Shown: positions 1,288 to 39,173 of the stretch, piece after piece
Position numbering within the stretch: the first letter of the stretch is position 1
How the letters are laid out: the number at the start of each line of letters is the position of its first letter
From: Malacoraja senta
Lineage: Eukaryota
NCBI GenBank assembly: GCA_038087875.1
Contig: CM075992.1
Location: forward strand, 12,464,001-12,528,000
DNA: 64,000 nucleotides
Reading direction: 5' to 3'
Notes under the pieces: generated by a model
What the model was told of the DNA's origin: nothing
Databases searched by the model: none
What the model saw: the letters and a program-made list of their open reading frames with translations, nothing else
Position numbers and translations under genes: made by a program

Positions 1288-1383
1288 ATCCCCAGATGTC
1301 CACAGTGGAACAGACCCAGGGATCGTTGACTGGAGAATCCATCCAGGATTCGGCTTCTGTCCCAGTGGGAGATACATCCTCAG
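1288..1383 (+). CDS. Ser/Thr/Pro-rich stalk exon type S3 (96 nt, phase 1-1) of the D8C-mucin array
   Basis: ttcctttattccAG|ATCCC...TCCTCAG|GTacc; encodes DPQMSTVEQTQGSLTGESIQDSASVPVGDTSS; paralogous to 35036-35131 and 39398-39493. Confidence 0.7.
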
Positions 1384-2703: not shown

Positions 2704-5700
2704 CTGAGTTTGTATCTGGTTCTGGGACGGTGGACAGATCCTCCCGGGGTTCAGCTGTTGTTTCCTGGGGTTTGGGTGTTTCCTGGGGTTCGGCTGTTTC
2801 CTGGGCTTCCTCAGTTGGTACGGAGGCTGGATCTGTAATAAAATGTGGACAAACAGTGGGTGTAGTGTGGAAATAATCCAGCAGCTCTGCGGGATGGGAG
2901 CAGAGGGAAGTGCACGGCCGACACCAGTATCTGGTGACACCAACGGTCCAGCCCTCTCCTGCACCATGTATCCTCACCCCCCCAGTACATCCCACTCCAC
3001 AGTGGAGTGACCGTTACTGCCTCCCAGCTCCTCCACCCCACACACCTCACACATTGGGACCCGTCCCTGCGTCACTCCGCTCTGCTCCCCACTCCCTCTG
3101 CTCCTCACCCCCATCATTCCCGTCTTCATTCAATACTCCCCGTCCGTCTCTCTGCTCTCATTCCCCTCCGCTCGCCCCTCCCTGCCCTCTCACCTCCTCC
3201 TCGACCCTGCCTCTCCCTCACCCACCCTTTCCCTCTCTCTCACCCACGCACGTTCTCCCACCCGCTCTGTCCCTCTCCACCCTCTCCCTGCTTCCCCCTC
3301 ACCCGCCGGCTCACTCGGTCTCGTGGGAGGGGAGGGGATGGGTCATTCGTGGGACGTCAATACGTATAGCGCATAGCGCTCGTCCGATCAGTTTCGAACT
3401 GCTCTGCCAAGGTAAGGCAATTTTCACCGGGCCACTCTATAGCGTGCCCAGAGTAGCTCTGGAGGCGGCCGGGGGTTTGGGCCACCGCGGCAGCTCCATT
3501 GGAGCTAGAGTAAGAAGAATCTTTTGTGTCGCAGTTCGAACTCTCCACGGGAGCAGGCGGCTGATATTGTAGACCGCCGTGGGCTCCATAGGAGCTAGGA
3601 TTACGGCTGTTACCGGTTATGGCTCTGCACGGCAGCAGGCGGACAAAATTGGAGACCGCCGTAGGGAGGGGAGGAAGGGAATGGCCTGGACCTGGGGAGG
3701 AGAGATCCCTGGAGGAGGGGATAGGGAACGGCTAAGGTTGGTGTTCCAGGGGTGGGCTTGGTCCCGGGGGGGGGGGAGGAGAAGACTCGATCATTGGGGG
3801 GGGGGGTTACGGTGATATCTCGGTCCCAGGGAGGGGGTCCCAGGCTCGGTTCCACGGAGGGGGTCCCAGGCTCGGTCCTAGGGGACACAATGAGGGACAC
3901 TGCTGGTCAGTGGGAGTTATCACGGTGTATCTCAGTCCACAGATGATCGTCCCAGCCAAGTCATTGATACAGACTGTGACTCACCGGGGCCCAAGCACTG
4001 AGCCCTCTTGTACCCACACGGTCACTGCTGCCAACCTGAGAATGATCTGCTTATTCCCACCTGTGCCTCTGTCGAAAAGCCAATTCTCAATCCATGTCAG
4101 TGTGTGAACAATTCCATGTGCTCTGACCTTGTTGACCAGCCTCTTGTGCAGGAACGTACTAAATGCTTTCTGAAAACCCCCCAGCCCAGCCACTGGTTCC
4201 CTCATCTGTTCTACTGGACGTGTCCTCAATGTGCTCCAGGGACTGTGAAACCTGAAATTCCTTCCACAGCCCATATTGTCTCTGCTCAGTCCTAACAGTG
4301 ACACCGACTCCCTTCACTCGTAGTTCCCCATCACACAGGAGAACCACTGTGAACCCGGCAAGTTGATGGGAAAGTCCCAACGGAGCATGGGAGAGAGAAG
4401 GGAAGTTCCGATGCTGGAGCGAGGGGGGAGGGGAGATAGGTCCATGAGTGAGGGTCTTGCAGAGTGAGGGGGGGCGTGGAGGGGGCTGTGCGGTCAGGGA
4501 GTGAGGACTAAGCCAGGGTGAGGGTGGAAGTGCAGCGGTCTGAGCCAGGAGCGAGGTGGGTGGGGGGACGGGGTGGAGGAGCTGTGCTGAAGCAAAGATG
4601 GGAGGGGACGAAGCTGGGACCAGGGTGCGAGGGGAAGGGACAGGTCTAGGGGCAGGGGAAGAGGGGGGGGCAGTTAACCTGAACACTCAGTGTGTTGGTG
4701 ACGCGGGACGTCACAGAATATCTCCACAACACCAACTGCCTGTGTGACTGGGGAACGGGGACCTACCTGTACAATACACAGCGTCGGTGTAGGGTAACGG
4801 CCACAGCTGATACACAAAGTAACCGGTGCAGTTCTTCACCCTGATCTCCAGGTCCCTGTAGCAGATGTCACTGCCCACAGTGAAACAGACTAGCCTGGTC
4901 ACCTCCCCGTCTCCCACGCTGGGATGGCGACCTGGAATGAGGATTATAAACATTGTAAAATGTACCCGGTGCCACAGTGCGGTGGGGAATGTGAATGTGG
5001 AGCCAGTGTAAGGCAGTGATCACAAGCCACGGTCGGGTTTGACCTGCCTCAGTCAGCGGTGAGCTGCTGCCCTCACCCTCCCCACCCACACTCACCACAG
5101 CAGCCCCTGCTCCTGGTGCTGACGCCCTAGGGTGCCGGGGTCTGGACTGGAAACACCCCAATGGGTGCTGACAGCTGGTGATGAGCGGACATGAAAGGTT
5201 TAGAGGAACACTGGCCGAATTAGCTCAGATGGGACATCATGGTCGGCATGGGCCGAAGGGCCCATTTCTGTGCCCTGTGACATGACTAATTACAGTATAT
5301 AATGTATAGTTCAGCCTCATCGGAAATATCACTAGATTGCAATAATTTTAACCACAACACATCACGAACACTTCAATCACACATCATATGCACATTGTTG
5401 CTAAATGTTGTTTGTATTTAATTTCTCCGCCTCGTTACTGAACTGTGGGTGTCCTGAGACGGGCCCAGCTCCCTGGGAGCTGCTCCTCCACTGAAACTGC
5501 TCCGGCTCTGATCTGGAGCAGGGGCAACGAGCGGATGGGATCCGCAGCCCCACTATCGGGAAACTCCAGGAAGCTGGAGCTTCCCCACCGCACTCCGTGA
5601 GGATCCAGGGCCGGTGCGCGGTCTAAGTGACTATGGGGGAACATCTCAGGGAGTTTGTGTTCCGTGTCTGTGCGAGGGGCCCTCTGGAGAGATCTGGGTG

Positions 5701-6304
5701 GTCAGTCTGACCCTCCCGGACAATGACTGAGAGCATCTGTAGTAAACTCTGACCCTACCGTTTAACCAGACTGGGTACTCCCCGGAGCAGTGATTCACTT
5801 GAATGCCAGTCTCCGGAATCTTCCATCCACCGGAACTGAAACAACAATCAGAGAGTCAGCCCCTCAACTGAGGGAGTAGGTTCACCCAGGGAAAGACCCG
5901 GAATCAGGGCTATTCTGACCGCACCCCGTCCCGTTCAACATTCCCCGGAATCCAATGTTGTTTTCCCTCCGCTTCCGTCTTCCCCGGTCTCTCACTCCAC
6001 AATGTGGGATCTCCCCATTCTCAGTATTGATGCCCCGTCCCATTTTAGCAACTGATGATCACCATCTCCCTACATCTTCCCTTCACACGCCCCTCATTAT
6101 CCCGTTTACATTCTCCATCAGTGTCCAATTTCTCAGCAATGATCGCCTCACGTTACCTCTTAAATCTGTACCATCTCACTGTAAGGTTCCAATCACCCAT
6201 CGTTGTCCCACCGCTGCACTCAGTGTGGGAACAATCCGTGCTCCTCCAGGGCTGATCCAGGACGGTGTGGGTCACACACGGGTCACCGAGTGCGGAGTCT
6301 GTGG
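2704..6304 (-). CDS. Module A: uromodulin/GP2/OIT3-like D8C (D10C) domain plus mucin-like stalk; exons 6304-6157, 5835-5759, 4931-4767, 2832-2704 (173 aa, open)
   Basis: All introns are GT-AG with compatible phases. Spliced product: TDSALGDPCVTHTVLDQPWRSTDCSHTECSGGTTMGDWNLTVRWYRFKSSGGWKIPETGIQVNHCSGEYPVWLNGRHPSVGDGEVTRLVCFTVGSDICYRDLEIRVKNCTGYFVYQLWPLPYTDAVYCT-DPASVPTEEAQETAEPQETPKP... It matches the D8C motifs DPC..L..WRS, WYRF..GG, WLNG.HP, VK.C.G.YVY.L and YCT. Confidence 0.85.
3960..4225 (-). mobile_element. CR1 reverse transcriptase fragment (intronic; copies at ~19797-20070, 29890-30170, 36690-36975, 41735-42015)
   Basis: FQKAFSTFLHKRLVNKVRAHGI..LTWIENWL...GSVLGP. Confidence 0.75.
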
Positions 6305-10764: not shown

Positions 10765-13446
10765 CTGAGTTTGTATCTGGTTCTGGGACGGTGGACAGAT
10801 CCTCCCGGGGTTCAGCTGTTGTTTCCTGGGATTTGGGTGTTTCCTGGGGTTCGGCTGTTTCCTGGGCTTCCTCAGTTGGTACGGAGGCTGGATCTGTAAT
10901 AAAGTGTGGACAGACAGTGGGTGTAGTGTGGAAATAATCCAGCAGCTCTGCGGGATGGGAGCAGAGGGAAGTGCACGGCCGACAAGAGTCTCTGGTGACA
11001 CCAACGGTCCAGCCTTCTCCTGCACCGTGTATCCTGACACCCCCAGTACATCCCACTCCACAGTGGAGTGACCGTTACTGCCTCCCAGCTCCTCCACCCC
11101 ACACACCTCACACATTGGGACCCGTCCCTGCATCACTCCGCTCTGCTCCCCACTCCCTCTGCTCCTCACCCCCATCATTCCCGTCTTCATTCAATACTCT
11201 CCGTCCGTCTCTCTGCTCTCATTCCCCTCCGCTCGCCCCTCCCTGCCCTCTAACCTCCTCCTCGACCCTGCCTCTCCCTCACCCACCCTTTCCCTCTCTC
11301 TCACCCACGCACCTCTCCCACCCCCTCTGTCCCTCTCCACCCTCTCCCTGCTCCCCCTCACCCGCCGGCTCACTCGGTCTCGTGGGAGGGGAGGGGATGG
11401 GTCATTCGTGGGACGTCAATACGTCTAGCGCATAGCGCTCGTCCGATCAGTTTCGAACTGCTCTGCCAAGGTAAGGCAATTTTCACCGGGCCACTCTATA
11501 GCGTGCCCAGAGTAGCTCTGGAGGCGGCCGTGGGTTTGGGCCACCGTGGCAGCTCCATAGGAGCTAGAGTAAGAAGAATCTTTTGTGTCGCAGTTCGAGC
11601 TCTCCACGGGAGCAGGCGGCTGATATTGTAGACCGCCGTGGGCTCCATAGGAGCTAGGATTACGGCTGTTACCGTTATATCTCTGCACGGCAGCAGGCGG
11701 ACAAAATTGGAGACCGCCGTAGGGAGGGGAGGAAGGGAATGGCCTGCACCTGGGGAGGAGAGATCCCTGGAGGAGGGGATAGGTCTAGGGGCAGGGGAAG
11801 AGGGGGGGGGGGCAGTTAACCTGAACACTCAGTGTGTTGGTGACGCGGGACGTCACAGAATATCTCCACAACACCAACTACCTGTGTGACTGGGGAACGG
11901 ACACCTACCTGTACAATACACAGCGTCGGTGTAGGGTAACGGCCACAGCTGATACACAAAGTAACCGGTGCAGTTCTTCACCCTGATCTCCAGGTCCCTG
12001 TAGCAGATGTCACTGCCTACAGTGAAACAGACTAGCCTGGTCACCTCCCCGTCTCCCACGCTGGGATGGCGACCTGGAATGAGGATTATAAACATTGTAA
12101 AATGTACCCGGAGCCACAGTGCGGTGGGGAATGTGAATGTGGAGCCAATGTAAGGCAGTGATCACAAGCCACGGTCGGGTTTGACCTGCCTCAGTCAGCG
12201 GTGAGCTGCTGCCCTCACCCTCCTCACCCACACTCCCCACAGCAGCCCCTGCTCCTGGTGCTGACGCCCTAGGGTGCCGGGGTCAGGACTGGAAACACCC
12301 CGATGGGTGCTGACAGCTGGTGATGAGCGGACATGAAAGGTTTAGAGGAACACTGGCCGAATTAGCTCAGATGGGACATCATGGTCGGCATGGGCCGAAG
12401 GGCCCATTTCTGTGCCGTGTGACATGACTAATTACAGTATATAATGTATAGTTCAGCCTCATCGGAAATATCACTAGATTGCAATACTTTTAACCACAAC
12501 ACATCACGAACACTTCAATCACACATCATAAGCACATTGTTGCTGAATGTTGTGTGTATTTAATTTCTCCGCCTCGTTGCTGAACAGTGGGTGTCCTGAG
12601 ACGGGCCCAGCTCCCTGGGAGCTGCTCCTCCACTGAAACTGCTCCGGCTCCGATCTGGAGCAGGGGCAACGAGCGGATGGGATCCGTAGCCCCACTATCG
12701 GGAAACTCCAGGAAGCTGGAGCTTCCGCACCGCACTCCGTGAGGATCCAGGGCCGGTGCACGGTCTAAGTGACTATGGGGGAACCTCTCAGGGAGTTTGT
12801 GTTCCGTGTCCGTGCGAGGGGCCCTCTGGAGGGATCTGGGTGGTCAGTCTGACCCTCCCGGACAATAACTGAGAGCATCTGTAATAAACTCTGACCCTAC
12901 CGTTTAACCAGACTGGGTACTCCCCGGAGCAGTGATTCACTTGAATGCCAGTCTCCGGAATCTTCCATCCACCGGAACTGAAACAACAATCAGAGAGTCA
13001 GCCCCTCAACTGAGGGAGTACGTTCACCCAGGGAAAGACCTGGAATCAGGGCTATTCTGACCGCACCCCGTCCCGTTCAACATTCCCCGGAATCCAATGT
13101 TGTTTTCCCTCCGCTTCCGTCTTCCCCGGTCTCTCACTCCACATTGTGGGAACTCCCCATTCTCAGTATTGATGCCCCGTCCCATTGTAGCAACTGATGA
13201 TCACCATCTCCCTACATCTTCCCTTCACACGCCCCTCATTATCCCGTTTACATTTTCCATCAGTGTCCAATTTCTCAGCAATGATCGCCTCACGTTACCT
13301 CTTAAATCTGTACCATCCCACTGTAAGGTTCCAATCACCCATTGTTGTCCCACCGCTGCACTCAGTGTGGGAACAATCCGTGCTCCTCCAGGGCTGATCC
13401 AGGACGGTGTGGGTCACACACGCGTCACCGAGTGCGGAGTCTGTGG
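10765..13446 (-). CDS. Module B: D8C-like domain plus stalk; exons 13446-13299, 12977-12901, 12073-11909, 10893-10765 (173 aa, open)
   Basis: Same exon sizes (148/77/165/129), GT-AG sites, no stops. DAC replaces DPC; GWYRF is intact. Confidence 0.85.
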
Positions 13447-18539: not shown

Positions 18540-21500
18540 CTGAGTTTGTATCTGGTTCTGGGACGGTGGACAGATCCTCCCGGGGTTCAGCTGTTGTTTC
18601 CCGGGGTTTGGGTGTTTCCTGGGGTTCGGCTGTTTCCTGTTCTTCCTCAGTTGGTACGGAGGCTGGATCTGTAATAAAGTGTGGACAGACAGTGGGTGTA
18701 GTGTGGAAATAATCCAGCAGCCCTGCGGGATGGGAGCAGAGGGAAGTGCACGGCCGACACCAGTCTCTGGTGACACAACGGTCCAGCCCTCTCCTGCACC
18801 GTGTATCCTGACACCCCCAGTACATCCCACTCCACAGTGGAGTGACCGTTACTGCCTCCCAGCTCCTCCACCCCACACACCTCACACATTGGGACCCGTC
18901 CCTGCGTCACTCCGCTCTGCTCCCCACTCCCTCTGCTCCTCACCCCCATCATTCCCCTCTTCATTCAATACTCTCCGTCCGTCTCTCTGCTCTCATTCCC
19001 CTCCGCTCGCCCCTCCCTGCCCTCTCACCTCCTCCTCGACCCTGCCTCTCCCTCACCCACCCTTTCCCTCTCTCTCACCCACGCACCTCTCCCACCCCCT
19101 CTGTCCCTCTCCACCCTCTCCCTGCTTCCCCCTCACCCGCCGGCTCACTCGGTCTCGTGGGAGGGGAGGGGATGGGTCATTCGTGGGACGTCAATACGTC
19201 TAGCGCATGGCGCTCGTCCGATCAGTTTCGAACTGCTCTGCCAAGGTAAGTCAATTTTCACCGGGCCACTCTATAGCGTGCCCAGGGTAGCTCTGGAGGC
19301 GGCCGGGGGTTTGGGCCACCGTGGCAGCTCAATAGGAGCTAGAGTAAGAAGAATCTTTTGTGTCGCAGTTCGAGCTCTCCACGGGAGCAGGCGGCTGATA
19401 TTGTAAACCGCCGTGGGCTCCATAGGACCTAGGATTACGGCTGTTACCGTTATAGCTCTGCACGGCAGCAGGCGGACAAAATTGGAGACCGCCGTAGGGA
19501 GGGAAGGAAGGGAATGGCCTGGACCTGGGGAGGAGAGATCCCTGGAGGAGGGGATAGGGAACGGCTAAGGTTGGGGTTCCAGGGGTGGGCTTGGTCCCAG
19601 GGGGGGGGGGGAGGAGAAGACTCGATCATTGGGGGGGGGGGGGTTACGGTGATATGTCGGTCCCAGGGAGGGGGTCCCAGGCTCGTTCCCGCGGAGGGGG
19701 TCCCAGGCTCGGTCCCAGGGGGCACAGTGAGGGACACTGCTGGTCAGGGGGAGATATCACGGTGTATCTCAGTCCACAGATGATCGTCCCAGCCAAGTTA
19801 TTGATACAGATTGTGATTCACCGGGGCCCAAGCACTGAGCCCTCTTGTACCCACACGTCACTGCTGCCAAACTGAGAATGATCTGCTTATTTCCACCTGT
19901 TGCTCTTTGTCCAAAAGCCAATTCTCAATCCATGTCAGTGTGTGAACAATTCCATGTGCTCTGACCTTGTTGACCAGCCTCTTGTGCAGGAACGTACTAA
20001 ATGCTTTCTGAAAACCCCCCACAGCCCAGCCACTGGTTCCCTCATCTGTTCTACTGGACGTGTCCTCAATGTGCTCCAGGGACTGTGAAACCTGAAATTC
20101 CTTCCACAGCCCATATTGTCTCTGCTCAGTCCTAACAGTGACACCGACTCCCTTCACTCGCACTTCCCCATCACACAGGAGAATCACTGTGAACCCGGCA
20201 AGTTGATGGGAAAGTCCCAACGGAGCATGGGAGAGAGAAGGGAAGTTCCGATGCTGGAGCGAGGGGGGGAGGGGAGATAGGTCCATGAGTGAGGGTCTTG
20301 CAGAGTCAGGGGGGGCGTGGAGGGGGCTGTGCGGTCAGGGAGTGAGGACTAAGCCAGGGTGAGGGTGGAAGTGCAGCGGTCTGAGCCAGGAGCGAGGTGG
20401 GTGGGGGGACGGGGTGGAGGAGCTGTGCTGAAGCAAAGATGGGAGGGGACGAAGCTGGGACCAGGGTGGGAGGGGAGGGGACAGGTCTAGGGGCAGGGGA
20501 AGAGGGGGGGGCAGTTAACCTGAACACTCAGTGTGTTGGTGACGCGGGACGTCACAGAATATCTCCACAACACCAACTACCTGTGTGACTGGGGAACGGG
20601 GACCTACCTGTACAATACACAGCGTCGGTGTAGGGTAACGGCCACAGCTGATACACAAAGTAACCGGTGCAGTTCTTCACCCTGATCTCCAGGTCCCTGT
20701 AGCAGATGTCACTGCCCACAGTGAAACAGACTAGCCTGGTCACCTCCCCGTCTCCCACGCTGGGATGGTGACCTGGAATGAGGATTATAAACATTGTAAA
20801 ATGTACCCGGTGCCACAGTGCGGTGGGGAATGTGAATGTGGAGCCAGTGTAAGGCAGTGATCACAAGCCACGGTCGGGTTTGACCTGCCTCAGTCAGCGG
20901 TGAGCTGCTGCCCTCACCCTCCCCACCCACACTCCCCACAGCAGCCCCTGCTCCTGGTGCTGACGCCCTAGGGTGCCGGGGTCTGGACTGGAAACACCCC
21001 GATGGGTGCTGACAGCTGGTGATGAGCGGCCATGAAAGGTTTAGAGGAACACTGGCCGAATTAGCTCAGATGGGACATCATGGTCGGCATGGGCCGAAGG
21101 GCCCATTTCTGTGCCGTGTGACATGACTAATTAAAGTATATAATGTATAGTTCAGCCTCATCGGAAATATCACTAGATTGCAATACTTTTAACCACAACA
21201 CATCACGAACACTTCAATCACACATCATAAGCACATTGTTGCTAAATGTTGTTTGTATTTAATTTCTCCGCCTCGTTGCTGAACAGTGGGTGTCCTGAGA
21301 CGGGCCCAGCTCCCTGGGAGCTGCTCCTCCACTGAAACTGCTCCGGCTCTGATCTGGAGCAGGGGCAACGAGCGGATGGGATCCGTAGCCCCACTATCGG
21401 GAAACTCCAGGAAGCTGGAGCTTCCCCACCGCACTCCGTGAGGATCCAGGGCCGGTGCGCGGTCTAAGTGACTATGGGGGAACATCTCAGGGAGTTTGTG

Positions 21501-22145
21501 TTCCGTGTCCGTGCGAGGGGCCCTCTGGAGAGATCTGGGTGGTCAGTCTGACCCTCCCGGACAATAACTGAGAGCATCTGTAGTAAACTCTGACCCTACC
21601 GTTTAACCAGACTGGGTACTCCCCGGAGCAGTGATTCACTTGAATGCCAGTCTCCGGAATCTTCCATCCACCGGAACTGAAACAACAATCAGAGAGTCAG
21701 CCCCTCAACTGAGGGAGTACGTTCACCCAGGGAAAGACCCGGAATCAGGGCTATTCTGACCGCACCCCGTCCCGTTCAACATTCCCCGGAATCCAATGTT
21801 GTTTTCCCTCCGCTTCCGTCTTCCCCGGTCTCTCACTCCACAATGTGGGAACTCCCCATTCTCAGTATTGATGCCCCGTCCCATTGTAGCAACTGATGAT
21901 CACCATCTCCCTACATCTTCCCTTCACACGCCCCTCATTATCCCGTTTACATTCTCCATCAGTGTCCAATTTCTCAGCAATGATCGCCTCACGTTACCTC
22001 TTAAATCTGTACCATCCCACTGTAAGGTTCCAATCACCCATCGTTGTCCCACCGCTGCACTCAGTGTGGGAACAATCCGTGCTCCTCCAGGGCTGATCCA
22101 GGACGGTGTGGGTCACACACGCGTCACCGAGTGCGGAGTCTGTGA
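18540..22145 (-). CDS. Module C: D8C-like domain plus stalk; exons 22145-21998, 21676-21600, 20772-20608, 18668-18540 (173 aa, open)
   Basis: Same exon sizes, GT-AG sites, no stops; GHHPSVGDG variant. Confidence 0.85.
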
Positions 22146-24142: not shown

Positions 24143-24271
24143 ATCCAGCCTCCGTACCAACTGAGGAAGCCCAGGAAACAGCCGAACCCCAGGAAACACC
24201 CAAGCCCCAGGAAACAACAGCTGAACCCCGGGAGGATCTGTCCACCGTCCCAGAACCAGATACAAACTCAG
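24143..24271 (+). CDS. Stalk exon type S1 (129 nt, phase 1-1); its D8C exons are not in this contig
   Basis: actttattacAG|ATCCAG...AACTCAG|GTattg; encodes DPASVPTEEAQETAEPQETPKPQETTAEPREDLSTVPEPDTNS. Confidence 0.8.
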
Positions 24272-27816: not shown

Positions 27817-30800
27817 CCACAGACTCCGCACTCGATGACCCGTGTGTGACCCACACCGTCCTGGATCAGCCCTGGAGGAGCACGGATTGTTCCCACACTG
27901 AGTGCAGCGGTGGGACAACGATGGGTGATTGGAACCTTACTGTGGGATGGTACAGATTTAAGAGGTAACGTGAGGCGATCATTGCTGAGAAATTGGACAC
28001 GGATGAGAATGTAAACGGGATAATGAGGGGCGTGTGAAGGGGAGATGTAGGGAGATTGGTGATCATCAGTTGCTGCAATGGGACGGGGCATCAATACTGA
28101 GAATGGGGAGTTCCCACATTGTGGAGTGAGAGACCGGGGAAGACGGAAGCGGAGGGAAAACAACATTGGATTCCGGGGAATGTTGAACGGGACGGGGTGC
28201 GGTCAGAATAGCCCTGATTCCGGGTCTTTCCCTGGTTGAACGTACTCCCTCAGTTGAGGGGCTGACTCTCTGATTGTTGTTTCAGTTCCGGTGGATGGAA
28301 GATTCCGGAGACTGGCATTCAAGTGAATCACTGCTCCGGGGAGTACCCAGTCTGGTTAAACGGTAGGGTCAGAGTTTACTACAGATGCTCTCAGTTATTG
28401 TCCGGGAGGGTCAGACTGACCACCCAGATCTCTCCAGAGGGCCCCTCGCACGGACACGGAACACAAACTCCCTGAGATGTTCCCCCATAGTCACTTAGAC
28501 CGCGCACCGGCCCTGGATCCTCACGGAGTGCGGTGGGGAAGCTCCAGCTTCCTGGAGTTTCCCGATAGTGGGGCTACGGATCCCATCCGCCCGTTGCCCC
28601 TGCTCCAGATCAGAGCCGGAGCAGTTTCAGTGGAGGGGCAGCTCCAGGAGCTGGGCCCGTCTCAGGACACCCACTGTTCAGCAACGAGGCGGAGAAATTA
28701 AATACAAAACAACATTTAGCAACTATGTGCTTATGATGTGTGATTGAAGTGTTCGTGATGTGTTGTGGTTAAAAGTATTGCAATCTAGTGATATTTCCGA
28801 TGAGGCTGAACTATACATTATATACTGTAATTAGTCATGTCACACGGCACAGAAATGGGCCCTTCGGCCCATGCCGACCATGATGTCCCATCTGAGCTAA
28901 TTCGGCCAGTGTTCCTCTAAACCTTTCATGGCCACTCATCACCAGCTGTCAGCACCCATCGGGGTGTTTCCAGTCCAGACCCCGGCACCCTAGGGCGTCA
29001 GCACCAGGAGCAGGGGCTGCTGTGGGGAGTGTGGGTGGGGAGGGTGAGGGCAGCAGCTCACCGCTGACTGAGGCAGGTCAAACCCGACCGTGGCTTGTGA
29101 TCACTGCCTTACACTGGCTCCACATTCACATTCCCACCGCACTGTGGCACCGGGTACATTTTACAATGTTTATAATCCTCATTCCAGGTCGCCATCCCAG
29201 CGTGGAAACGGGGAGGTGACCAGGCTAGTCTGTTTCACTGTGGGCAGTGACATCTGCTACAGAGACCTGGAGATCAGGGTGAAGAACTGCACCGGTTACT
29301 TTGTGTATCAGCTGTGGCCGTTACCCTACACCGACGCTGTGTATTGTACAGGTAGGTCTCCGTTCCCCAGTCACACAGGCAGTTGGTGTTGTGGAGATAT
29401 TCTGTGACGTCCCGCGTCACCAACACACTGAGTATTCAGGTTTACTGCCCCCCCTCTTCCCGTGCCCCTAGACCTGTCCCCTCCCCTCCCACCCTGGTCC
29501 CAGCTTCGTCCCCTCCCATCTTTGCTTCAGCACAGCTCCTCCACCCCGTCCCCCCACCCACCTCGCTCTGGCTCAGACCGCTGCACTTCCACCCTCACCC
29601 TGGCTTAGTCCCTCACTCCCTGACCGCACAGCCCCCTCCACGGCCCCCCTCACTCTGCAAGACCCTCACTCATGGACCTATCTCCCCTCCCCCCTCGCTC
29701 CAGCATCGGAACTTCCCTTCTCTCTCCCATGCTCCGTTGGGACTTTCCCATCAACTTGCCGGATTCACAGTGGTTCTCCTGGTGTGATGGGGAAGTACGA
29801 GTGAAGGGAGTCCGGTGTCACTGTCAGGACTGAGCAGAGACAATATGGGCTGTGGAAGGAATTTCAGGTTTCACAGTCCCTGGAGCACATTGAGGACACG
29901 TCCAGTAGAACAGATGAGGGAACCAGTGGCTGGGCTGTGGGGGGTTTTCAGAAAGCATTTAGTACGTTCCTGCACGAGAGGCTGGTCAACAAGGTCAGAG
30001 CACATGGAATTGTTCACACACTGACATGGATTGAGAATTGGCTTTTGGACAGAGAGCAACAGGTGGGAATAAGCAGATCATTCTCAGGTTGGCAGCAGTG
30101 ACGTGTGGGTACAAGAGGGCTCAGTGCTTGGGCCCCGGTGAATCACAATCTGTATCAATAACTTGGCTGGGACGATCATCTGTGCACTGAGATACACCGT
30201 GATATCTCCCACTGACCAGCAGTGTCCCTCACTGTGCCCCCTCGGACCGAGCCTGGGACCCCCTCCGTGCGACCGAGCCTGGGACCCCTCCCTGGGACCG
30301 ACATAGCACCGTAACCCCCCCCCCAATGATCGAGTCTTCTCCTCCCTCCCCCCCTGGACCAAGCCCACCCCTGGAACCCCAACCTTAGCCGTACCCTATC
30401 CCCTCCTCCAGGGATCTCTCCTCCCCAGGTCCAGGCCATTCCCTTCCTCCCCTCCCTACGGCGGTCTCCAATTTTGTCCGCCTGCTGCCGTGCAGAGCTA
30501 TAACGGTAACAGCCGTAATCCTAGCTCCTATGGAGCCCACGGCGGTCTTACAATATCAGCCGCCTGCTCCCGTGGAGAGCTCGAACTGCGACACAAACGA
30601 TTCTTCTTACTCTAGCTCCTATGGAGCTGCCACGGTGGCCCAAACCCCCGGCCGCCTCCAGAGCTACTCTGGGCACGCTATAGAGTGGCCCGCTGAAAAT
30701 TGCCTTACCTTGGCAGAGCAGTTCGAAACTGATCGGACGAGCGCTATGCGCTAGACGTATTGACGTCCCACGAATGACCCATCCCCTTCCCTCCCACGAG

Positions 30801-31449
30801 ACCGAGTGAGCCGGCGGGTGAGGGGAAGCAGGGAGAGGGTGGAGAGGGACAGAGGGGGTGGGAGAGGTACGTGGGTGAGAGAGAGTGAAAGGGAGGGGTG
30901 AGGAGAGGCAGGGTCGAGGAGGAGGTGAGAGGGCAGGGAGGGGCGAGCGGAGGGGAATGAGAGCAGAGAGACGGACGGAGAGTATTGAATGAAGACGGGA
31001 ATGATGGGGGTGAGGAGCAGAGGGAGTGGGGAGCAGAGCGGAGTGACGCAGGGACGGGTCCCAATGTGTGAGGTGTGAGGGTGGAGGAGCTGGGAGGCAG
31101 TAACGGTCACTCCACTGTGGAGTGGGATGTACTGGGGGTGTCAGGATACATGGTGCAGGAGAGGGCTGGACCGTTGGTGTCACCAGAGACTGGTGTCGGC
31201 CGTGCACTTCCCGCTGCTCCCATCCCGCAGAGCTGCTGGATTATTTCCACACTACACCCACTGTCTGTCCACACTTTATTACAGATCCAGCCTCCGTACC
31301 AACTGAGGAAGCCCAGGAAACAGCCGAACCTCAGGAAACAGCTGAACCCCAAGAAACAGCCGAACACCAGGAAACAGCCGAACCCCAGCAAACAACAGCT
31401 GAACCCAGGGAGGATGTGTTCACCATCCCAGAACCAGATACAAGCTCAG
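27817..31449 (+). pseudogene. Module D: D8C-like domain plus stalk; exons 27817-27964, 28286-28362, 29188-29351 (1-nt deletion), 31285-31449; frameshifted as assembled
   Basis: Splice sites are intact. Exon 3 is 164 nt rather than 165 (GTGGAAACGGGG versus GTGGGAGACGGGG), giving GRHPSVETGR*. This could be a consensus error. Confidence 0.7.
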
Positions 31450-32014
31450 GTATTGATGGGGAGATGATTTTTCTGACCCCAAACGTCCGTGCTGGCGGGG
31501 AAAGGGCAGGGGAGGGTGATTTGAGGAATATTGGCATCGAGGAGATGGAGGCGAGAGGCTGGGGTGTGGGGTGAGGAAATCTAGAGAGAGAGAGAGAGAG
31601 GGAGGAGGGGGTCTGGGGTGAGTGGGCGGAGGGTGTCTGGAGTTGTGGGAGGGTGTGTAGTGGGAGGAAGGGGATGTGGAGTATGGGAGAGGGATCAGAA
31701 GGGGAGTAGGGGTTTGTGGGAGGAGGCTGGGGGATTGGGGGATGGAGGGAGGCTGGGAAAAGGTGAGGCGGATGTCTGGAGTGAGGGGAGGTGGGAGTGG
31801 GGAGGGTGAGATCTGGAAGGTTGGTGCTGGGGAGGGGGGAGAGGGAGGTCTGGTATTGGGGTGGAGGTGGCAGGAGGGAGTCTGGGAGATGGGCCAGGAA
31901 TCCATTGGTGGGAGCGGACCCCAGGGGAGGGTGGATGTGGGACAGTGTGGAGAGGGGAGGAGTGCAAGTAGAAATGTGAGGATGGTGGAAGAGAAGGGCA
32001 GGTCTAGCACGGGA

Positions 32015-32240
32015 ACAGGCCCTTCGTGCTTCGACCCTGATTCCGCGCTGACCAGTGATCCCCGTACACTTGCACTATCCTGTACACTGGGGACATTAAC
32101 AATTTATACCAAAGCCAATTAACCTACAAACATGTACGTCTTTGGAGTGTGAGAAGACACTGGAGCACCTGGGGAAAACCCACGTGGTCACATGGAGAAC
32201 GTGCAAACTCCACACAGACAGCAGCCATAGTCTGGATCTA
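32015..32240 (-). mobile_element. HE1-like V-SINE (3' part; its 5' part resumes at ~33216-33265 after the Rex1 insertion)
   Basis: Reverse complement of the V-domain gttctcc..gtgggtttt..ctccaaagacgtac; intact paralog at ~38525-38800. Confidence 0.7.
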
Positions 32241-32277
32241 CAGACATAGTCTATACATAGATCTAACATAGTCAGGA

Positions 32278-33212
32278 TCCACAGACACCTCTGTCAAGCT
32301 TCTCAAGTTTGCGGACGACACAACCCTGATTGGACTGATCCAGGTTGGGGAGGAATCTGCCTACAGACAGGAAGTGTCACAGCTGGTGTCCTGGTGCCGT
32401 CGCAACAACCTAGAGCTCAATGCTCTTAAGAGAGTGAAATTGATTGTAGACTTTAGGAGATCTCCCCCTCCCCTCACCCCACTCACCATCAACAACACCA
32501 CAGTCACATCTGTGGAGTCTTTTAAGTTCCTGGGAACCATGATCTCCAAGGACCTTAAGTGGGGGGCTACCATCGACTCCACAGTCAAATAGGCACACAG
32601 AGGATGTACTTCCTACGGCAGCTGAGGAAGCACAATCTACCACAGGCAATGATGGTTCAATTCTACACGGCCATCGTAGAGTCTGTTCTCACCTTCTCCA
32701 TCATTGTCTGGTTTGGCTCAGCCACCAAACACGACATCCGGAGGCTGCAGCGAATCGTCCGATCAGCAGAGAAGATTATTGGCTGCAACCTTCCCTCCAT
32801 TGATGAACTGTACACTGCAAGGGCCAGGAAGCGAGCGGGCAAGATCATCTCTGACCCCTCTCACCCTGCCCACAAACTCTTTGAATAACTTCCCGCTGGA
32901 AAGCGACTCCGGATTGACAAAGCTGCCACAGCCAGACCTAAAAACTGTTTTTATCCAGGAGTAGTTGCTCCACTCAACAGCCAAAAATGTGTAGCCTCCC
33001 TTTGATCTGGTATTTAGTTGGTTCACATGCTTGATCAATGGTGTTTTATCATTAATGTTTTATTATTGTTAATGATTAGTGTTTTCTGAAACATTCGTAA
33101 CTGTCACTGTATGATCATGTTACTTGTGGGTGGAGCACCAAGGCAAATTCCTTGTATGTGAATATTTGGCTAATAAACTTACTTATTTACTTACTTACTT
33201 ACTTACTTACCT
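32278..33212 (+). mobile_element. 5'-truncated Rex1/Babar-type LINE (RT C-terminus, 3' UTR, (TTAC)n tail)
   Basis: SVKLLKFADDTTLIGLI..EESAYRQEV..LVSWCRRNNLELN, QRMYFLRQLRK, FYTAIVESVLT, DPSHPAHKLF; AATAAA followed by (ttac)n at 33172-33212. Confidence 0.85.
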
Positions 33213-33694
33213 ACCCTCGGGTCTCTGGTGCCGGGGGCAGCAACTCTACCGCTGCCCCTTGTGCTGCCCTAAGGAGTGAATGGATGACTGGAGATTGCGG
33301 GAGAAGGGGGAAAGTCAGTGGAGAGCTCGTGGAGAATGTATTTTGGTGGCTGACTGACAATCGGGGGCAGGGGCTGAATGGTGAAGCAAGTGAGCGTGTG
33401 TGCGGATTGGACGAGGGGTGTGAGTGAGTTGGGAAAGGATGGATTTAGTCAGGATCCAGGGATAGAGCTCTGTAGGGGAGTCGAGGAGGAACAAGGAAGG
33501 TGGCGTGGAGCGTGTTGGAGGAGTGTGTAATGTTCCATGTGAGATGTGGGACCTGTGAGATTTGGTGTGTGTTGGTGTGTGTTAGCACGGACTGGTGACT
33601 CTTGGTCTCTGCAGCCGACTTCCCTCCTGATCAGCTGTTCAATGTGTTTTTACTCTTTTACCCTCCCTGTCCCTCCTCCTCTCTCTTCTTCCAG

Positions 33695-33790
33695 ATCCAC
33701 CGTTGGACACAACTCTGGAACCCCAGGGAGCAGGGACTGGAGACTCTAGTCCGGGTTTAACTCGTGACCCAGCAGGGTCTGCAAGCTCAG
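33695..33790 (+). CDS. Stalk exon type S2 (96 nt, phase 1-1)
   Basis: Long pyrimidine tract ..ttcttccAG|ATCC...AGCTCAG|GTatca; encodes DPPLDTTLEPQGAGTGDSSPGLTRDPAGSASS. Confidence 0.7.
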
Positions 33791-33822
33791 GTATCAGTGG
33801 TGGGGAGCATGGAACAGAAAAA

Positions 33823-34137
33823 GGCAGCATGGTGGCGCAGCGGTAGAGTTGCTGGCTTACAGCGCCAGAGACCCCGGTTTGATCCTGACTATGGGTGCTG
33901 TCTGTACGGTTTTTGTACGTTCTCCCCGTGACCTGCGTGGGTTTTCTCTGGGTGCTTCTGTTTCCTCCCACATCCCAAAGACGTACAGGTTTGTAAGTTA
34001 ATTGGTTTGGTATGATTGTAAATTGTCCCTGGTGTGTAGTATAGTGTGTAGGTTAGTGTGCGGGGATCGCTGGTCAGTGCGGACTGGGTGGGCGGAAGGG
34101 CCTTGTTTCCACGTTGTATCTGCAAACTAATCTAAAC
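33823..34137 (+). mobile_element. Full-length tRNA-derived V-SINE (HE1-like)
   Basis: A box TGGCGCAGCGG, B box GGTTTGATCC, V-domain gttctccccgtg..gtgggtttt..tttcctcccacatcccaaagac, CR1-like 3' end gaagggcc.tgtttcc, tail (ctaaa). Confidence 0.8.
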
Positions 34138-35035
34138 AGGACATCACAGGAACAGGCCCATCACCCCACAAAGTCCGTGCCGAACATGATGGCAATTTAA
34201 ACCTCTGCCAGCACGTGATCCCTATCCCTACATTTCCTGCATACCAACATTCCTCACCAAACAACGTAATATCCACCATCGTATCAGCCTCCATCACCAC
34301 TTCTGGCAGCACATTCCAGGCCCCCACCACTCTGCGTAAAAGACTTGTCCCCCACATCTGTTCAACTTTGCACCTTGCATCTTAAAGCTGTGCCTTCTAA
34401 TCTTTGACATTTCCACCCTGGGGGAAACGTTCTAAATGGCTACCCCATCATTGCTGCATAATTTTATATACTTCTGTCTGATCCATACTTAGCCTCGACA
34501 ACCCAGAGAAAACACCTCCTGAACACCTCCGCAGTCCGCCAAGGCCAATGAGATCTCCCGGTTGCTAAATACTTTAACTCCTCCTCCCATTCCTATACTG
34601 ACCTTCCCATTCCTACATTGACCAGCATCTGCAGTCTTTGTTTCTACATTTTTCAGAGCAGATGGTTGAGGCAGGTCTAATAACATTTACAAGCCATTTT
34701 GACATGTACATGGACAGGAAAGGTTTCGAGGAATTTGGGCCAAAATGTGGGCAAATGGAACTAGCTGAGATGTGGTGGCATGGACGAGTTGGGCTGAAGG
34801 GCCTGTTTCCGTGCTCTATAATCTGTGACTGTGGCCAGTCCCTGAAATTCACCCCGACTCGGACTGTGGAGAGTGACGTGGAGTGACAGACATTTCAGAA
34901 GGAGAGTGGGTGAAAGGAGATTGGATGATGCTGCTCTCTCCACAGAGCCAGTCCTCCAATTCCCAAACCCCGCTGACTGTCTGATGACCTGTTGTAGTGT
35001 TGCCACACTCCCGTGTCTCTGTTCCTTTATTCCAG

Positions 35036-35131
35036 ATCCTCAGATGTCCACAGTGGAACAGACCCAGGGATCATCGACTGGAGAATCTGTCCAGGAACCG
35101 GCTTCTGTCCCAGTGGGAGACACATCCTCAG
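35036..35131 (+). CDS. Stalk exon type S3 (96 nt, phase 1-1)
   Basis: ttcctttattccAG|ATCC...TCCTCAG|GTacc; encodes DPQMSTVEQTQGSSTGESVQEPASVPVGDTSS. Confidence 0.7.
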
Positions 35132-35189
35132 GTACCAAACCCTCTTGCACATTTTCACTTGTCCTCATTAACCCTGTCATGGGTCATAC

Positions 35190-36500
35190 TGTGTGGAAAC
35201 AACTCGCCCACACCAGCCAACGTGTTCCAGCCACACTAGCCCCACCTGCCAGCATTTGGTCCATATCCCTCCAAACCTGTCCTATCCATATACCTATCTA
35301 ACTGTTTCTTAAATGTTGGGATGGTCCCTGCCATAATTTCCTCCTCTGGTAGCATGTTGCAGACATCCAACACCCATTGTGAGAAAAGGTTACCCCTCAG
35401 ATTCCTATTAAATCTTTTCTCCTTCACTTTAAACCTATGTCCTCTGGTCCTCAATTGACCTACTTTGGGCAAGAGACTGCATCTACCCGATCAATTCCTC
35501 TCATGATCTCATACACCTTTAGAAGATCACCCCTCATCCTCCTTGCTCCAAAGAATAGTTCCAGCCTACACAACCTCTGCCAAGAGCTCAGACTCTCTAG
35601 CCCTGGCAACATCCTTGTAAATCCAGCTTGACAACATATTTCCTATAACACGGTGTTCAGAACTGAACACAATACTCTAATTGTGGCCTCGCCAATGTCG
35701 TAAACAACTGCTACATGATCTCCCGACTTATATACTCGATACTCTGGCTGATAAAGGCCAATGTGCCAAAAGCCTTTTTGACCACCCGATGTACCTGTAA
35801 CTCCACCTTCAGGGAACTATGCACCTACACTCCTAGATCCCACTGCTCCACAACACTCCCTAGAGCATTACCATTCACTGTGTAGGTCCTGCTCATGTTA
35901 GACTTCCCTAAATTCAACATCTCACATTTGTGTATTAAATTCCATCCACCTCAGCCCACCTGCCAATCGATCAAGATCCTGCTGCAATTTTTCACATCTT
36001 CACATCTTAGGTAAAACCACCTACTTTTGTATCATCTGCAAACTTGCTAATCTTGCCATGTATGTTCTCATACAAATCATTGATAGAGATGACAAACAGT
36101 AACGGGCCCAGCACCGAACACTGAGGAATACCACTAGTCACAGGCCTCCAGTCCGAGAAGCAACCTTCCACCATCACCCTCTGCTTCCTTCCATGAAGCC
36201 AATTTTCAATCCATTCAGCTATCTCTCCTTGGATCCCATTCCATCTAACCTTCTAGAGCAGCCTACCATGAGGATACTTGTCGAATGCTTTACTGAATTC
36301 CATTCCTACAACATCTATAGCTCTGCCCTCATCGACCTTTTTAGTCACAACATTTGCCACCATCCAGTCTTCCGGCACCTTTCCTGTATTTAAAGACTAA
36401 TCATAAATATTAATCAGGGCTGACACAATTTCCTCTCTGAGGGGTCCCACTCTCTCTAATTACCCTTTTCTCCATTATCTATTTATAACATCTCTTGGGG
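35190..36500 (-). mobile_element. CR1 LINE ORF2 3' half, degenerate
   Basis: RTRGHRFKVK..RFNRNLRGNLFSQ, VTSGIPQCSVLGPLLFVI, ISKFADDTK. Confidence 0.85.
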
Positions 36501-37760
36501 TTGTCCTGAAACAGTGGAAATGGATGATTCCGTTGTGTGATGTGTAAGAGTGTTAAAGGAATACGGTCCGAGACTCTTGAAAGGCCGGCACCACCATTGT
36601 ACCGAGCGTGCTGGATCAGTTGGGTATTACTGGAGTAACAGACATGTGGTGAAATAATCTGAGGGTTGAGCAGAGACACTGTTGTCCCTGGAGCACATTG
36701 AGGACACGTCCAGTAGAACAGATGAGGGAACCAGTGGCTGGGCTGTGGGGGATTTTCAGAAAGCATTTAGTACGTTCCTGCACAAGAGGCTGGTCAACAA
36801 GGTCAGAGCACATGGAATTGTTCACACACTGACATGGATTGAAATTGGCTTTTGGACAGAGAGCAACAGGTGGGAACAAGCAGATCATTCTCAGGTTGGC
36901 AGCAGTGACGTGTAGGTACAAGAGGGCTCAGTGCTTGGGGTCCGGTGAATCACAATCTGTATCAATACCTTGGCTGGGACGATAATCTGTGGACTGAGAT
37001 ACACCCTGATATCTCACACTGACCTGCAGTGTCCCTCACTGTGCCCCCTGGGACCGAGCCTGGGATCCCCTCTCTGGGACCGAGATATCACCGCAAACCC
37101 CCCCCCCCCCCAATGAACGAGTCTTGTCCGCCCTAACCCCCTGGGACCAAGACCACCCCTGGAACCCCAAACTAAGCCGTTCCCTATCCCCTTCTCCAGG
37201 GAGCTCTCCTCCCCAGGTCCAGGCCGTGCCCTCCCTCCCCTCACTCGCCCTAGGACCGACCCGACCCCTCCCCTCCCACGAGACCGATTGAGCCGGCGGG
37301 TGAGGGTAAAGCAGGGAGAGGGTGGAGAGGGACAGAGGGGGTGGGAGAGGTGCGTGGGTGAGAGAGGGAAAGGGTGGGAGAGGCAGGGTCGAGGAGGAGG
37401 TGAGAGGGCAGGGAGGGGCGGGTGGAGGGGAATGAGGGCAGAGAGACGGACGAAGAGTAATGAGTGACGACAGGAATGATGGGGGTGAAGAGCAGAGGGA
37501 GTGGGGAGCAGAGCGGAGTGACGCAGGGACGGGTCCCAATGTGTGAGGTGTGAGGGGTGGAGGAGCTGGGAGGCAGTAACGGTCACTCCACTGTGGAGTG
37601 GGATGTACTGGGGGTGTCAGGATACACGGTGCAGGAGAGGGCTGGACCGTTGGTGTCACCAGAGACTGGTGTCGGCCGTGCACTTCCCTCTGCCCCCATC
37701 CCGCAGAGCTGTTGGATTATTTCCACACTACACCCACTGTCTGTCCACACTTTATTACAG

Positions 37761-37961
37761 ATCCAGCCTCCGTACCAACTGAGGAAGCCCAGGACACAGC
37801 CGAACCCCAGGAAACAGCCGAACCCCAGGAAACAGCCGAAACCCAGGACACAGCCGAACCCCAGGAAACAGCCGAACCCCAGGAAACAGCCGAACCCCAG
37901 GAAACAACAACTGAACCCCGGAAGGATGTATCCACCGTCCCAGAACCAGATACAAACTCAG
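37761..37961 (+). CDS. Stalk exon type S1, expanded (201 nt, 67 aa)
   Basis: AG|ATCCAG...AACTCAG|GT; 7 QETAEP-type repeats. Confidence 0.75.
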
Positions 37962-38524
37962 GTATTGTTGGGGAGATGATTTTTCTGACCCCAAATATCC
38001 GTGCTGGTGGGGAAAGGGCAGGGGAGGGTGACGAGGAATATTGGCATCGAGGAGTAGTAGGAGAGAGGCTGGGGTGTGGGGTGAGGAAATCTGGAGAGAG
38101 AGAGGGGAGGAGCGGGTCTGGACTGGGGGGGGGGGGTGTGGGGGAGGGGGTCTGTAATGGACAGGCGGGGTGTGGAATGGGGGGGAGGGAGAAGAGAGAT
38201 CAGAAGGGGAGTAGGGGTTTGTGGGAGGAGGCTTGGAATTGGCGGATGGAGGGAGGCTGGGAAAAGGCGAGGCGGAGGTCTGGAGTGAGGGGAGGTGGGA
38301 GTGGGGGTGGGGGAGTGGGAGTTCTGGAAGGTTGGTGCTGGGGAGGGGGGAGAGGGAGGTCTGATATTGGGGTGGAGGTTGCAGGAGGGAGTCTGGGGAG
38401 ATGGGCCAGGAATCCATTGGTGGGAGCGGACCCCAGGGGAGGGTGGATGTGGGACAGTGTCGAGAGGGGAGGAGGGCAAGTAGAACTGTGAGTATAGTGG
38501 AAGAGAAGGGTAGGTATAGCACGG

Positions 38525-38800
38525 GAACAGGCCCTTCGACCGTCGACCCTAATTCCGCGCTGACCTGTGATCCCCGTACACTTGCACTATCCTGTACACT
38601 GGGGACAATTACAATTTATACCAAAGACAATTAAACTACAAACCTGTACGTCTCTGGAGTGTGAGAGGACACCGAAGCACCTGGATAAAACCCACGCGGT
38701 CACATGGAGAACGTGCAATCTCCGCACAAACAGCAGCCGTAGTCAGGATCTAACTCGGGTCTCTGGTGCAGTGAGGCAGCAACTCTACCGCTACCCCTTG
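38525..38800 (-). mobile_element. HE1-like V-SINE (empty-site paralog of the Rex1 insertion)
   Basis: Continuous across agtcaggatctaactcgggt. Confidence 0.7.
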
Positions 38801-39173
38801 TGCTGCCCTAAGGAGTGAATGGGTGACTGGAGATTGCGGGAGTAGGGGGAAAGTCAGTGGAGAGCTTGTGGAGAATGTATTTTGGTGCGGATTGGGCGAG
38901 GGGTGTGAGTGTGTTGTGAAAAGGATGGATTGAGTCAGGATCCAGGGATAGAGCTCTGTAGGAGAGTCGAGGAGGAAGAAGGAAGGTGGCGTGGAGCGTG
39001 TTGGAGGAGTGTGTAATGTTCCAGGTGAGATGTGGGACCTGTGAGATTTGGTGTGTGTTGCTGTCAGCATGGACTGGTGACTCTTGGTCTCTGCAGCCGA
39101 CTTCCCTCCTGATCAGCTGTTCAATGTGTTTTTACTCTTTTACCCTCCCTGTCCCTCCTCTCTCTTCTTCCAG

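What the first reader, a model, noticed from the sequence alone, without database searches (positions are those of the whole stretch)
4767..6304. D8C variant has lost two complete disulfide pairs and gained a CxxxxC insert
Aligned by eye to UMOD/GP2, the domain keeps C1 (DPC), C4 (NHC), C5 (LVC), C7 (DIC), C8 (KNC) and C10 (YCT). It replaces C2 (MGD), C3 (ETG), C6 (DI-C instead of CC) and C9 (PLPYTD). The GP2 D10C connectivity, as I recall it, is C1-C8, C2-C9, C3-C6, C4-C10, C5-C7, so the losses are exactly paired. An extra DCSHTEC loop adds two new cysteines. Paired loss shared by all four copies points to a folded, selected structural subtype rather than decay.
Basis: partly seen in the sequence, partly recalled or inferred. 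Interest (0 to 1): 0.72.

Follow-up and report, generated by a model that had tools for sequence, protein, structure and literature searches.

The report
Skate/ray variant of uromodulin decoy domain
This is a skate-type version of the uromodulin/GP2 decoy domain that has dropped two of its five disulfide bonds and gained a new cysteine pair; the pattern is real but is the ordinary form in skates and rays, reached in two steps through a shark-type intermediate, and sits in mucin-like proteins.

Summary
Observation confirmed. Three phase-compatible exons (6304-6157, 5835-5759, 4931-4767) encode a D10C/D8C domain that keeps C1, C4, C5, C7, C8 and C10, lacks C2, C3, C6 and C9, and adds CxxxxC. The recalled connectivity is right (PMC8930769), so the losses are two whole disulfides.

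Better evidence supports a folded form. The exact pattern occurs in 48 of 68 named skate/ray domains from 8 species. Sharks carry the insert and lack C3/C6 but keep C2 and C9 (26 of 32), so the insert cysteines are not displaced canonical ones. C2 and C9 co-change on a tree, a skate model superposes on GP2 (Z 22), and a relative's contig is spliced as predicted.

The pattern is therefore common in annotated batoid proteins, and the same six-cysteine core also occurs in oysters and a hemichordate. The host proteins are ZP-less D10C-mucins; this copy lacks the FimH-decoy glycan sites. Insert pairing and function are inferred, not shown. Verdict: a lineage-wide variant of a known domain, not found in my literature searches; modest interest.

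The parts
6157..6304 (-). Exon A of the D10C variant, copy 1: C1 (6278-6276), the two new cysteines (6233-6231, 6218-6216) and the lost C2 position (Gly, 6197-6195)
   Evidence: AG/GT ends and frame; alignment; covered by a spliced contig of a relative
6216..6233 (-). CxxxxC motif in the loop between 3-10 helix B and the C2 position
   Evidence: spacing of 4 in 61 of 61 batoid and 27 of 27 shark domains that carry both Cys; loop described as flexible in GP2 crystals (PMC8930769)
5759..5835 (-). Exon B: lost C3 position (Gly, 5807-5805) and C4 (5789-5787)
4767..4931 (-). Exon C: C5 (4887), lost C6 (Ile, 4866), C7 (4863), C8 (4830), lost C9 (Thr, 4788) and C10 (4773)
   Evidence: Pfam PF23283 E 2e-4 for this exon alone; human GP2/UMOD alignment
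2704..2832 (-). Mucin-like Glu/Pro/Thr-rich exon D following the domain, phase 1 at both ends
   Evidence: tblastn to P0004-P0006; splice ends; loose end of a contig at 4767 reads as the start of this exon type
11909..13446 (-). Copy 2 of exons A-B-C, intact, 8 Cys; its exon D at about 10765-10893
20608..22145 (-). Copy 3 of exons A-B-C, intact, 8 Cys; its exon D at about 18540-18668
27817..29351 (+). Copy 4 of exons A-B-C, with a 1-nt deletion early in exon C (near 29207): pseudogenised module or assembly error
24143..24271 (+). Further mucin-like exon D
31285..43017 (+). Run of mucin-like exons D, E, F, D, truncated E, F, D (E 33695-33790, F 35036-35131, F 39398-39493)
   Evidence: tblastn to P0005; phase-1 splice ends, no donor at the expected place for the second E
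1288..1383 (+). Isolated mucin-like exon F before the first assembly gap

Best explanation
The three exons encode a folded D10C (Pfam D8C_UMOD) domain of the skate/ray subtype. It has three canonical disulfides (C1-C8, C4-C10, C5-C7) plus a new short-range disulfide that staples the flexible loop before the old C2 position. It arose in two steps. Sampled elasmobranch domains lost C3-C6 and gained CxxxxC (shark form, still 10 Cys); the skate/ray ancestor then lost C2-C9, the bond that anchored that loop (8 Cys). The domain is a phase-1 exon module repeated in tandem with mucin-like exons, in a secreted glycoprotein without a ZP module. It most likely works as a glycan-bearing globular head on a mucin stalk at a mucosal or skin surface, binding or decoying microbes, by analogy with GP2, UMOD and zebrafish omcins, but not through the GP2/UMOD FimH glycan site in this copy. 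Shown: cysteine pattern, pairing of the losses, taxonomic distribution, exon structure, architecture of homologues. Inferred: fold (prediction on homologues), the new disulfide, secretion of this gene's product, function.
For: Published connectivity. C1, C4, C8 and C10 are present in 394, 393, 395 and 394 of 395 unique domains. Presence/absence correlation is highest for C3-C6 (phi 0.96), insert pair (0.93), C5-C7 (0.80) and C2-C9 (0.80); the next pair is 0.39. On a tree built without the Cys columns and the loop, C9 follows C2 in 7.5 of 9 independent pairs and opposes it in 0 (median p 0.008), against at most 1.4 of 9 for four control partners; 20 of 21 C2 changes and 12 of 13 C3 changes are shared with the partner. 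Named batoids: C2, C3 and C6 each 0 of 68, exact pattern 48 of 68; named sharks: C2+C9 26 of 32, C3 and C6 0 of 32. Fresh set: 12 of 12 shark domains (one a duplicate) have the shark pattern and 4 of 4 batoid domains lack C2/C3/C6/C9. Batoid domains form one clade (79 tips, support 94) inside an elasmobranch clade (122 tips, support 99) that holds all 107 insert-bearing domains. AlphaFold2 model of a skate domain with the same 8 Cys: block pLDDT 94-98 over residues 71-190, rmsd 1.1-1.8 A to GP2, Z 22. A 420-nt contig of a relative covers A, B and C and skips both introns. No ZP family is listed for any elasmobranch hit.
Against: No coordinates were available, so the insert S-S distance was not measured. 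Tree-controlled support for the insert pair is weak (1.5 of 4 independent pairs; 3 of 7 changes shared), and 11 of 395 domains carry only one of the two. The C3-C6 independent-pair test is underpowered (3 pairs). With a batoid-only alignment the model was much less confident (domain blocks 29-88; residues 68-80 and 197-212 under 50; Z 13-14, rmsd 2.3-3.0 A to GP2). Models are of homologues (P0008, P0005), not of the window's own spliced protein. No signal-peptide or C-terminal exon was found in the window, copy 4 is frameshifted, and expression was shown only for relatives about 90% identical in runs whose RNA status is a guess. C2-C9 loss occurs without any insert in oysters, a hemichordate and teleost repeats, so the insert is not required for it. 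There is no functional evidence for any elasmobranch member.
Confidence: 0.72

Rival explanations
1. The subtype is real, but the copies in this window are non-functional or partly artefactual segmental duplicates (orphan modules, haplotype duplicates or a mis-scaffolded array) and not parts of an expressed gene.
For: No signal-peptide or C-terminal exon found in 64 kb. Copies are 98-99% identical, with exons barely more conserved than introns; copy 4 is frameshifted. Strand flips coincide with 200-N gaps, and the contig after the second gap starts with about 1 kb that is 95-96% identical to sequence inside the previous contig. The copies differ from batoid consensus at normally conserved sites (for example K for N after WYRF).
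Against: Three of four copies keep open frames, all 8 Cys and canonical splice sites. Homologous genes are built from tandem phase-1 modules, with isoforms differing by one 130-aa domain or one 32-aa exon, so a signal exon outside the window is plausible.
Confidence: 0.2
2. The insert cysteines do not pair with each other. They form interchain bonds or rewire with other cysteines, giving a ZP-independent way to oligomerise a mucin-like protein.
For: The proteins have no ZP module. The two Cys lie in a loop that is flexible in GP2. Single losses occur in 11 domains. All 13 C2-less, insert-bearing domains that keep C9 have an extra adjacent Cys, showing that rewiring near this loop happens.
Against: Fixed spacing of 4 in all 88 named elasmobranch domains with both Cys. 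Strong co-occurrence (phi 0.93). Even totals dominate: 8 or 10 Cys in 57 of 68 batoid domains. The loop is confidently modelled in a monomer.
Confidence: 0.12
3. Decay: the cysteines were lost in a degenerating domain and the pairing is chance.
For: Chance of two whole pairs is not tiny (0.048); one copy is frameshifted.
Against: The same losses are fixed across 8 batoid species, with the core Cys and the motifs intact. Losses follow the disulfide partners on a tree. Spliced transcript-like contigs exist in relatives.
Confidence: 0.03

Closest known systems
D10C domain of human GP2 and uromodulin (PDB 7P6R/7P6S/7P6T, 7PFP; Pfam PF23283 D8C_UMOD)
   Same: Homologous sequence (E 6e-21 for a skate homologue), same predicted fold (Z 22), C1-C8, C4-C10 and C5-C7 cysteines kept.
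   Different: C2-C9 and C3-C6 absent; new CxxxxC; no preceding beta-hairpin cysteine pair inside the module; no sequon at the GP2 N65, UMOD N275 or UMOD N232 equivalents in this copy; no ZP module in the host proteins.
Annotated skate and ray 'GP2-like / uromodulin-like / OIT3-like / mucin-5AC-like' RefSeq proteins (for example XP_032879435.1, Amblyraja radiata)
   Same: Same 8-Cys pattern, same module boundaries, same mucin-like exons; nearest domains 79-83% identical. The window domain falls in this group.
   Different: One D10C per repeat unit alternating with exon D in the window; signal and C-terminal exons not found; names are automatic and carry no functional data.
Shark D10C-mucin proteins (Mustelus, Heterodontus, Scyliorhinus, Cetorhinus, Rhincodon, Pristiophorus)
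   Same: CxxxxC insert, loss of C3-C6, ZP-less architecture.
   Different: Keep C2-C9 in 26 of 32 named domains, so 10 Cys in total.
Zebrafish omcin family (PMC11415648)
   Same: Clustered, recently duplicated genes with a variable number of tandem D10C domains; antibacterial role shown for omc5.
   Different: Omc5 has EGF IV, a ZP module and a predicted GPI anchor. Teleost repeats sampled here lose other pairs (C2-C9 with C5-C7) and lack the insert.
Six-cysteine D10C domains of oysters (Magallana, Crassostrea), Ptychodera flava and a Nannocystaceae bacterium
   Same: Same double loss of C2-C9 and C3-C6 (12 domains in 6 proteins).
   Different: Only 30-36% identical and no CxxxxC; outside the elasmobranch clade, so the double loss is convergent (inferred).

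Membership tests
D8C_UMOD / D10C domain family (PF23283) | Sequence match to the family profile | tested here: met
   Exon C alone E 2e-4, 21.8 bits, below the 27-bit cut-off because it covers only 54 of 88 positions; the homologue P0005, 83% identical over the domain, passes at 62 bits
D8C_UMOD / D10C domain family (PF23283) | D10C fold | tested here: met
   AlphaFold2 model of homologue P0008 against GP2: Z 22, rmsd 1.7 A over 129 residues; batoid-only model Z 13-14. Prediction on homologues, not experiment.
D8C_UMOD / D10C domain family (PF23283) | Near-invariant C1, C4, C8, C10 | tested here: met
   Present in the window and in 393-395 of 395 domains
Canonical ten-cysteine D10C (GP2/UMOD/OIT3/VWDE type) | Ten cysteines forming five disulfides | tested here: not met
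   C2, C3, C6 and C9 absent
GP2/UMOD FimH decoy module | Disulfide-linked beta-hairpin preceding D10C | tested here: not met
   No Cys before C1 in exon A; in homologues the domain follows the signal peptide, another domain or a mucin exon
GP2/UMOD FimH decoy module | N-glycan site at GP2 N65 or UMOD N275 | tested here: not met
   Window has Thr11 and Gln116; its sequons are at residues 39 and 108. The N65-equivalent sequon survives in 30 of 69 batoid and 14 of 33 shark domains.
GP2/UMOD FimH decoy module | Binding of a bacterial adhesin | not testable with these tools
   needs a binding assay
UMOD/GP2/omcin ZP-module proteins | C-terminal ZP module | tested here: not met
   No PF00100 in 10 of 10 elasmobranch proteins scanned or in the precomputed domains of elasmobranch hits. 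The window itself was not searched with a ZP profile.
Batoid 8-Cys D10C subtype (defined here) | C1, CxxxxC, C4, C5, C7, C8, C10 present; C2, C3, C6, C9 absent | tested here: met
   Same pattern as 57 other unique domains in 37 proteins
Batoid 8-Cys D10C subtype (defined here) | Insert cysteines bonded to each other | tested here: inconclusive
   phi 0.93 and fixed spacing, but weak tree-controlled support and no coordinates

The most novel reading that the evidence does not exclude
Sharks and rays have an undescribed, expanded family of ZP-less D10C-mucins in which the CxxxxC pair is a new cross-linking or redox-switchable site that replaces ZP polymerisation. Skates and rays freed that loop further by dropping C2-C9, giving a mucus barrier polymer built on a principle different from UMOD/GP2 filaments and from gel-forming mucins.
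Probability: 0.1. Interest if true: 0.62.

Novelty: new variant of a known kind. Interest (0 to 1): 0.3.

Why it matters
The finding sorts the five D10C disulfides into a near-invariant core (C1-C8, C4-C10) and three that evolution drops in pairs (C2-C9, C3-C6, C5-C7). That gives a natural control for human UMOD cysteine mutations, where loss of one partner (for example C195, the C2 position; PMC8930769) is pathogenic, and it offers a shark-to-ray series for testing whether a new loop disulfide made an old one dispensable. It also points to an expanded ZP-less D10C-mucin family in elasmobranchs that my literature searches did not find described. A specialist would find paired disulfide loss in a lineage unsurprising, and this window's copies are ordinary members, so interest is modest.

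Tried and rejected
No whole genome is held for this window, so flanking exons could not be sought outside it.

The signal-peptide exon search by short tblastn and by a profile of 11 homologous N-termini found nothing convincing (best 5.4 of 65 possible). A C-terminal exon search hit only mucin and D10C exons.

No RNA holder on record was listed; 4 of 14 runs were laid, all contigs, RNA status guessed.

The Atlas search of the C-terminal domain of P0005 gave only an unnamed 0.79 hit, and fold matches for that part were Z 3 or less. The Atlas search of the domain returned D8C_UMOD clusters.

A shark-first alignment was built but not folded.

Independent-pair tests for C3-C6, C5-C7 and the insert pair had too few pairs to reach significance.

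No chimaera protein was named among the hits; this does not show absence.

Rejected: insert cysteines as displaced C2 or C9 (they coexist with both in 22 of 32 named shark domains); four copies as independent evidence; the insert as a prerequisite for C2-C9 loss.

Literature searches showed no paper on elasmobranch D8C/D10C proteins; subscription journals are not covered. Earlier scan notes returned nothing.

Full report
Observation. The minus strand carries three exons, A 6304-6157, B 5835-5759 and C 4931-4767, with AG/GT ends. Joined by coordinates they give 129 residues, no stop and eight cysteines. Exon C matches Pfam D8C_UMOD and human GP2 and uromodulin. In a 410-row alignment the window keeps C1, C4, C5, C7, C8 and C10; G36, G59, I97 and T123 occupy the C2, C3, C6 and C9 columns; residues 24 and 29 are extra cysteines. 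The GP2 crystal paper gives C1-C8, C2-C9, C3-C6, C4-C10, C5-C7 (PMC8930769; abstract and main text read; passages). The losses are two whole bonds, which chance would give with probability 0.048.

The four copies are not independent. They differ by 1.0-1.8% in exons and 0.8-2.4% in introns, and copy 4 has a 1-nt deletion in exon C. Each of copies 1-3 is followed by a mucin-like exon; more mucin-like exons lie at 1288, 24143 and 31285-43017. The module and the intact mucin exons are phase 1 at both ends. Strand changes coincide with 200-N gaps, so a single co-oriented array with one inverted contig is possible (inference). No signal-peptide or C-terminal exon was found in the window.

Relatives. 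The nearest domains are skate RefSeq proteins at 79-83% identity, so the source is probably a skate (inference). Searches returned 5, 62 and 32 named-database proteins and the best 150 of 2577 representatives. From 197 proteins, 548 domain hits gave 409 full-length domains; 139 partial hits were dropped, and 395 unique rows including the window's remained. The sample is ranked by likeness to skate queries and is not a census. The window's exact pattern occurs in 48 of 68 named batoid domains from 8 species, and none of the 68 has C2, C3 or C6. Among 32 named shark domains none has C3 or C6, 26 keep both C2 and C9, and 22 have these together with both insert cysteines. A later search gave 16 more full domains out of 23 hits: 12 of 12 shark domains (one a duplicate) had the shark pattern and 4 of 4 batoid domains lacked all four cysteines. 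The insert cysteines are therefore not displaced canonical ones.

Are the losses coupled? C1, C4, C8 and C10 are present in 393-395 of 395 domains. The four strongest presence/absence correlations are C3-C6, the insert pair, C5-C7 and C2-C9 (phi 0.96-0.80; next 0.39). On a FastTree tree built without the cysteine columns and the loop, C9 followed C2 in 7.5 of 9 independent pairs and never opposed it (median p 0.008), while four control partners followed in at most 1.4. By joint parsimony 20 of 21 C2 changes and 12 of 13 C3 changes were shared with the partner. The tests for C3-C6, C5-C7 and the insert pair had too few pairs; the insert pair shared only 3 of 7 changes. Rooted on a lizard uromodulin, named elasmobranch domains fall in one clade (122 tips, support 99) that holds all 107 insert-bearing domains, and batoid domains in one subclade (79 tips, support 94). 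The simplest order is loss of C3-C6 and gain of CxxxxC in elasmobranchs, then loss of C2-C9 in batoids. FastTree support on 103 columns is modest evidence.

The double loss is not unique. Twelve domains in six distant proteins have the same six-cysteine core without the insert; named ones come from two oysters, Ptychodera flava and a Nannocystaceae bacterium. Teleost repeats lose C2-C9 together with C5-C7. The insert is therefore not needed for C2-C9 loss, although it lies in the loop that C2-C9 anchors, which is flexible in GP2 crystals.

Fold. An AlphaFold2 model of skate P0008 (same eight cysteines; 45-row alignment including sharks and four lizard uromodulins) had block pLDDT 94-98 over residues 71-190 and matched GP2 at rmsd 1.1-1.8 A, Z 22. 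With a batoid-only 27-row alignment the two-domain protein P0005 was modelled with much lower confidence, worst just before the old C3 position, but still matched GP2 (Z 13-14, rmsd 2.3-3.0 A).

Expression. Of 14 listed runs none is on record as RNA. Four were laid. In X5 one 420-nt contig covers A, B and C at about 90% identity and skips both introns; X1 and X4 also join A to B; a loose end in X1 reads into a D-type exon; X5 and X8 join the end of one domain to the start of the next. This supports the exon model in relatives, not expression of these copies.

How it likely works. Homologues consist of a signal peptide (signal-like start in 18 of 53 models), one or more tandem domains, mucin-like repeats and a short C-terminal domain; 3 of 53 have a membrane-like stretch. 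None scanned has a ZP module. Amblyraja isoforms differ by one domain or one mucin exon. The closest functional precedents are GP2/UMOD decoys and zebrafish omcins (PMC11415648; abstract, introduction and first results read; a term search found no mention of sharks or cysteines). This copy lacks the beta-hairpin and the glycan sites that bind FimH, although 30 of 69 batoid domains keep the N65-equivalent sequon. I infer a secreted barrier glycoprotein with globular D10C heads on a mucin stalk; the ligand is unknown, and I put this functional step at about even odds.

Novelty. Eight literature searches (listings only, except the papers named) and passages of PMC12212870 showed no description of it. 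Supplements were not examined, and the 129-sequence alignment behind PMC8930769 Extended Data Fig. 1 may include such sequences. The taxonomic grouping into sharks and batoids is from my own knowledge. Verdict: a real, folded, lineage-wide variant of a known domain; interest 0.3.

Noticed in passing
P0018 282-410, P0047 18-145 and 11 other domains: All 13 C2-less, insert-bearing domains that keep C9 have a second cysteine next to it (CC), restoring an even count of 10; a possible vicinal or rewired disulfide.
   Followed up: partly
P0023 147-286, P0025 150-284, P0039 30-169 and relatives: A ray paralogue group lacks the CxxxxC pair but has one Cys two residues before the old C2 position and CC or CCC at C4, another apparent rewiring.
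   Followed up: no
window 1704-1903, 23782-23981, 48455-48654: Three 200-N gaps; exon strand flips at the first two, suggesting that the contig 1904-23781 is inverted by scaffolding.
   Followed up: partly
window 29188-29351: 1-nt deletion in exon C of copy 4; real lesion or assembly error not resolved.
   Followed up: partly
window 6347-6625 (-): An intron-side open frame resembles the N-terminal 60 residues of RefSeq model P0008, so that N-terminus is probably a gene-model artefact.
   Followed up: no
window about 49600-52650 (-): Broken frames resembling gag, reverse transcriptase and RNase H of an LTR retrotransposon (family resemblance recalled, not searched).
   Followed up: no
window 52870-64000: Large 65-bp tandem array, with a LINE-like fragment near 59200.
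   Followed up: no
C-termini of P0005, P0009, P0046 and of P0006, P0010, P0036: Two alternative short C-terminal domain types in these proteins (11 and 13 of 53 by rough patterns), without a Pfam match.
   Followed up: partly
P0067, P0112: D10C-like domains in Nannocystis-type bacteria, lacking C3-C6 and in one case also C2-C9.
   Followed up: no
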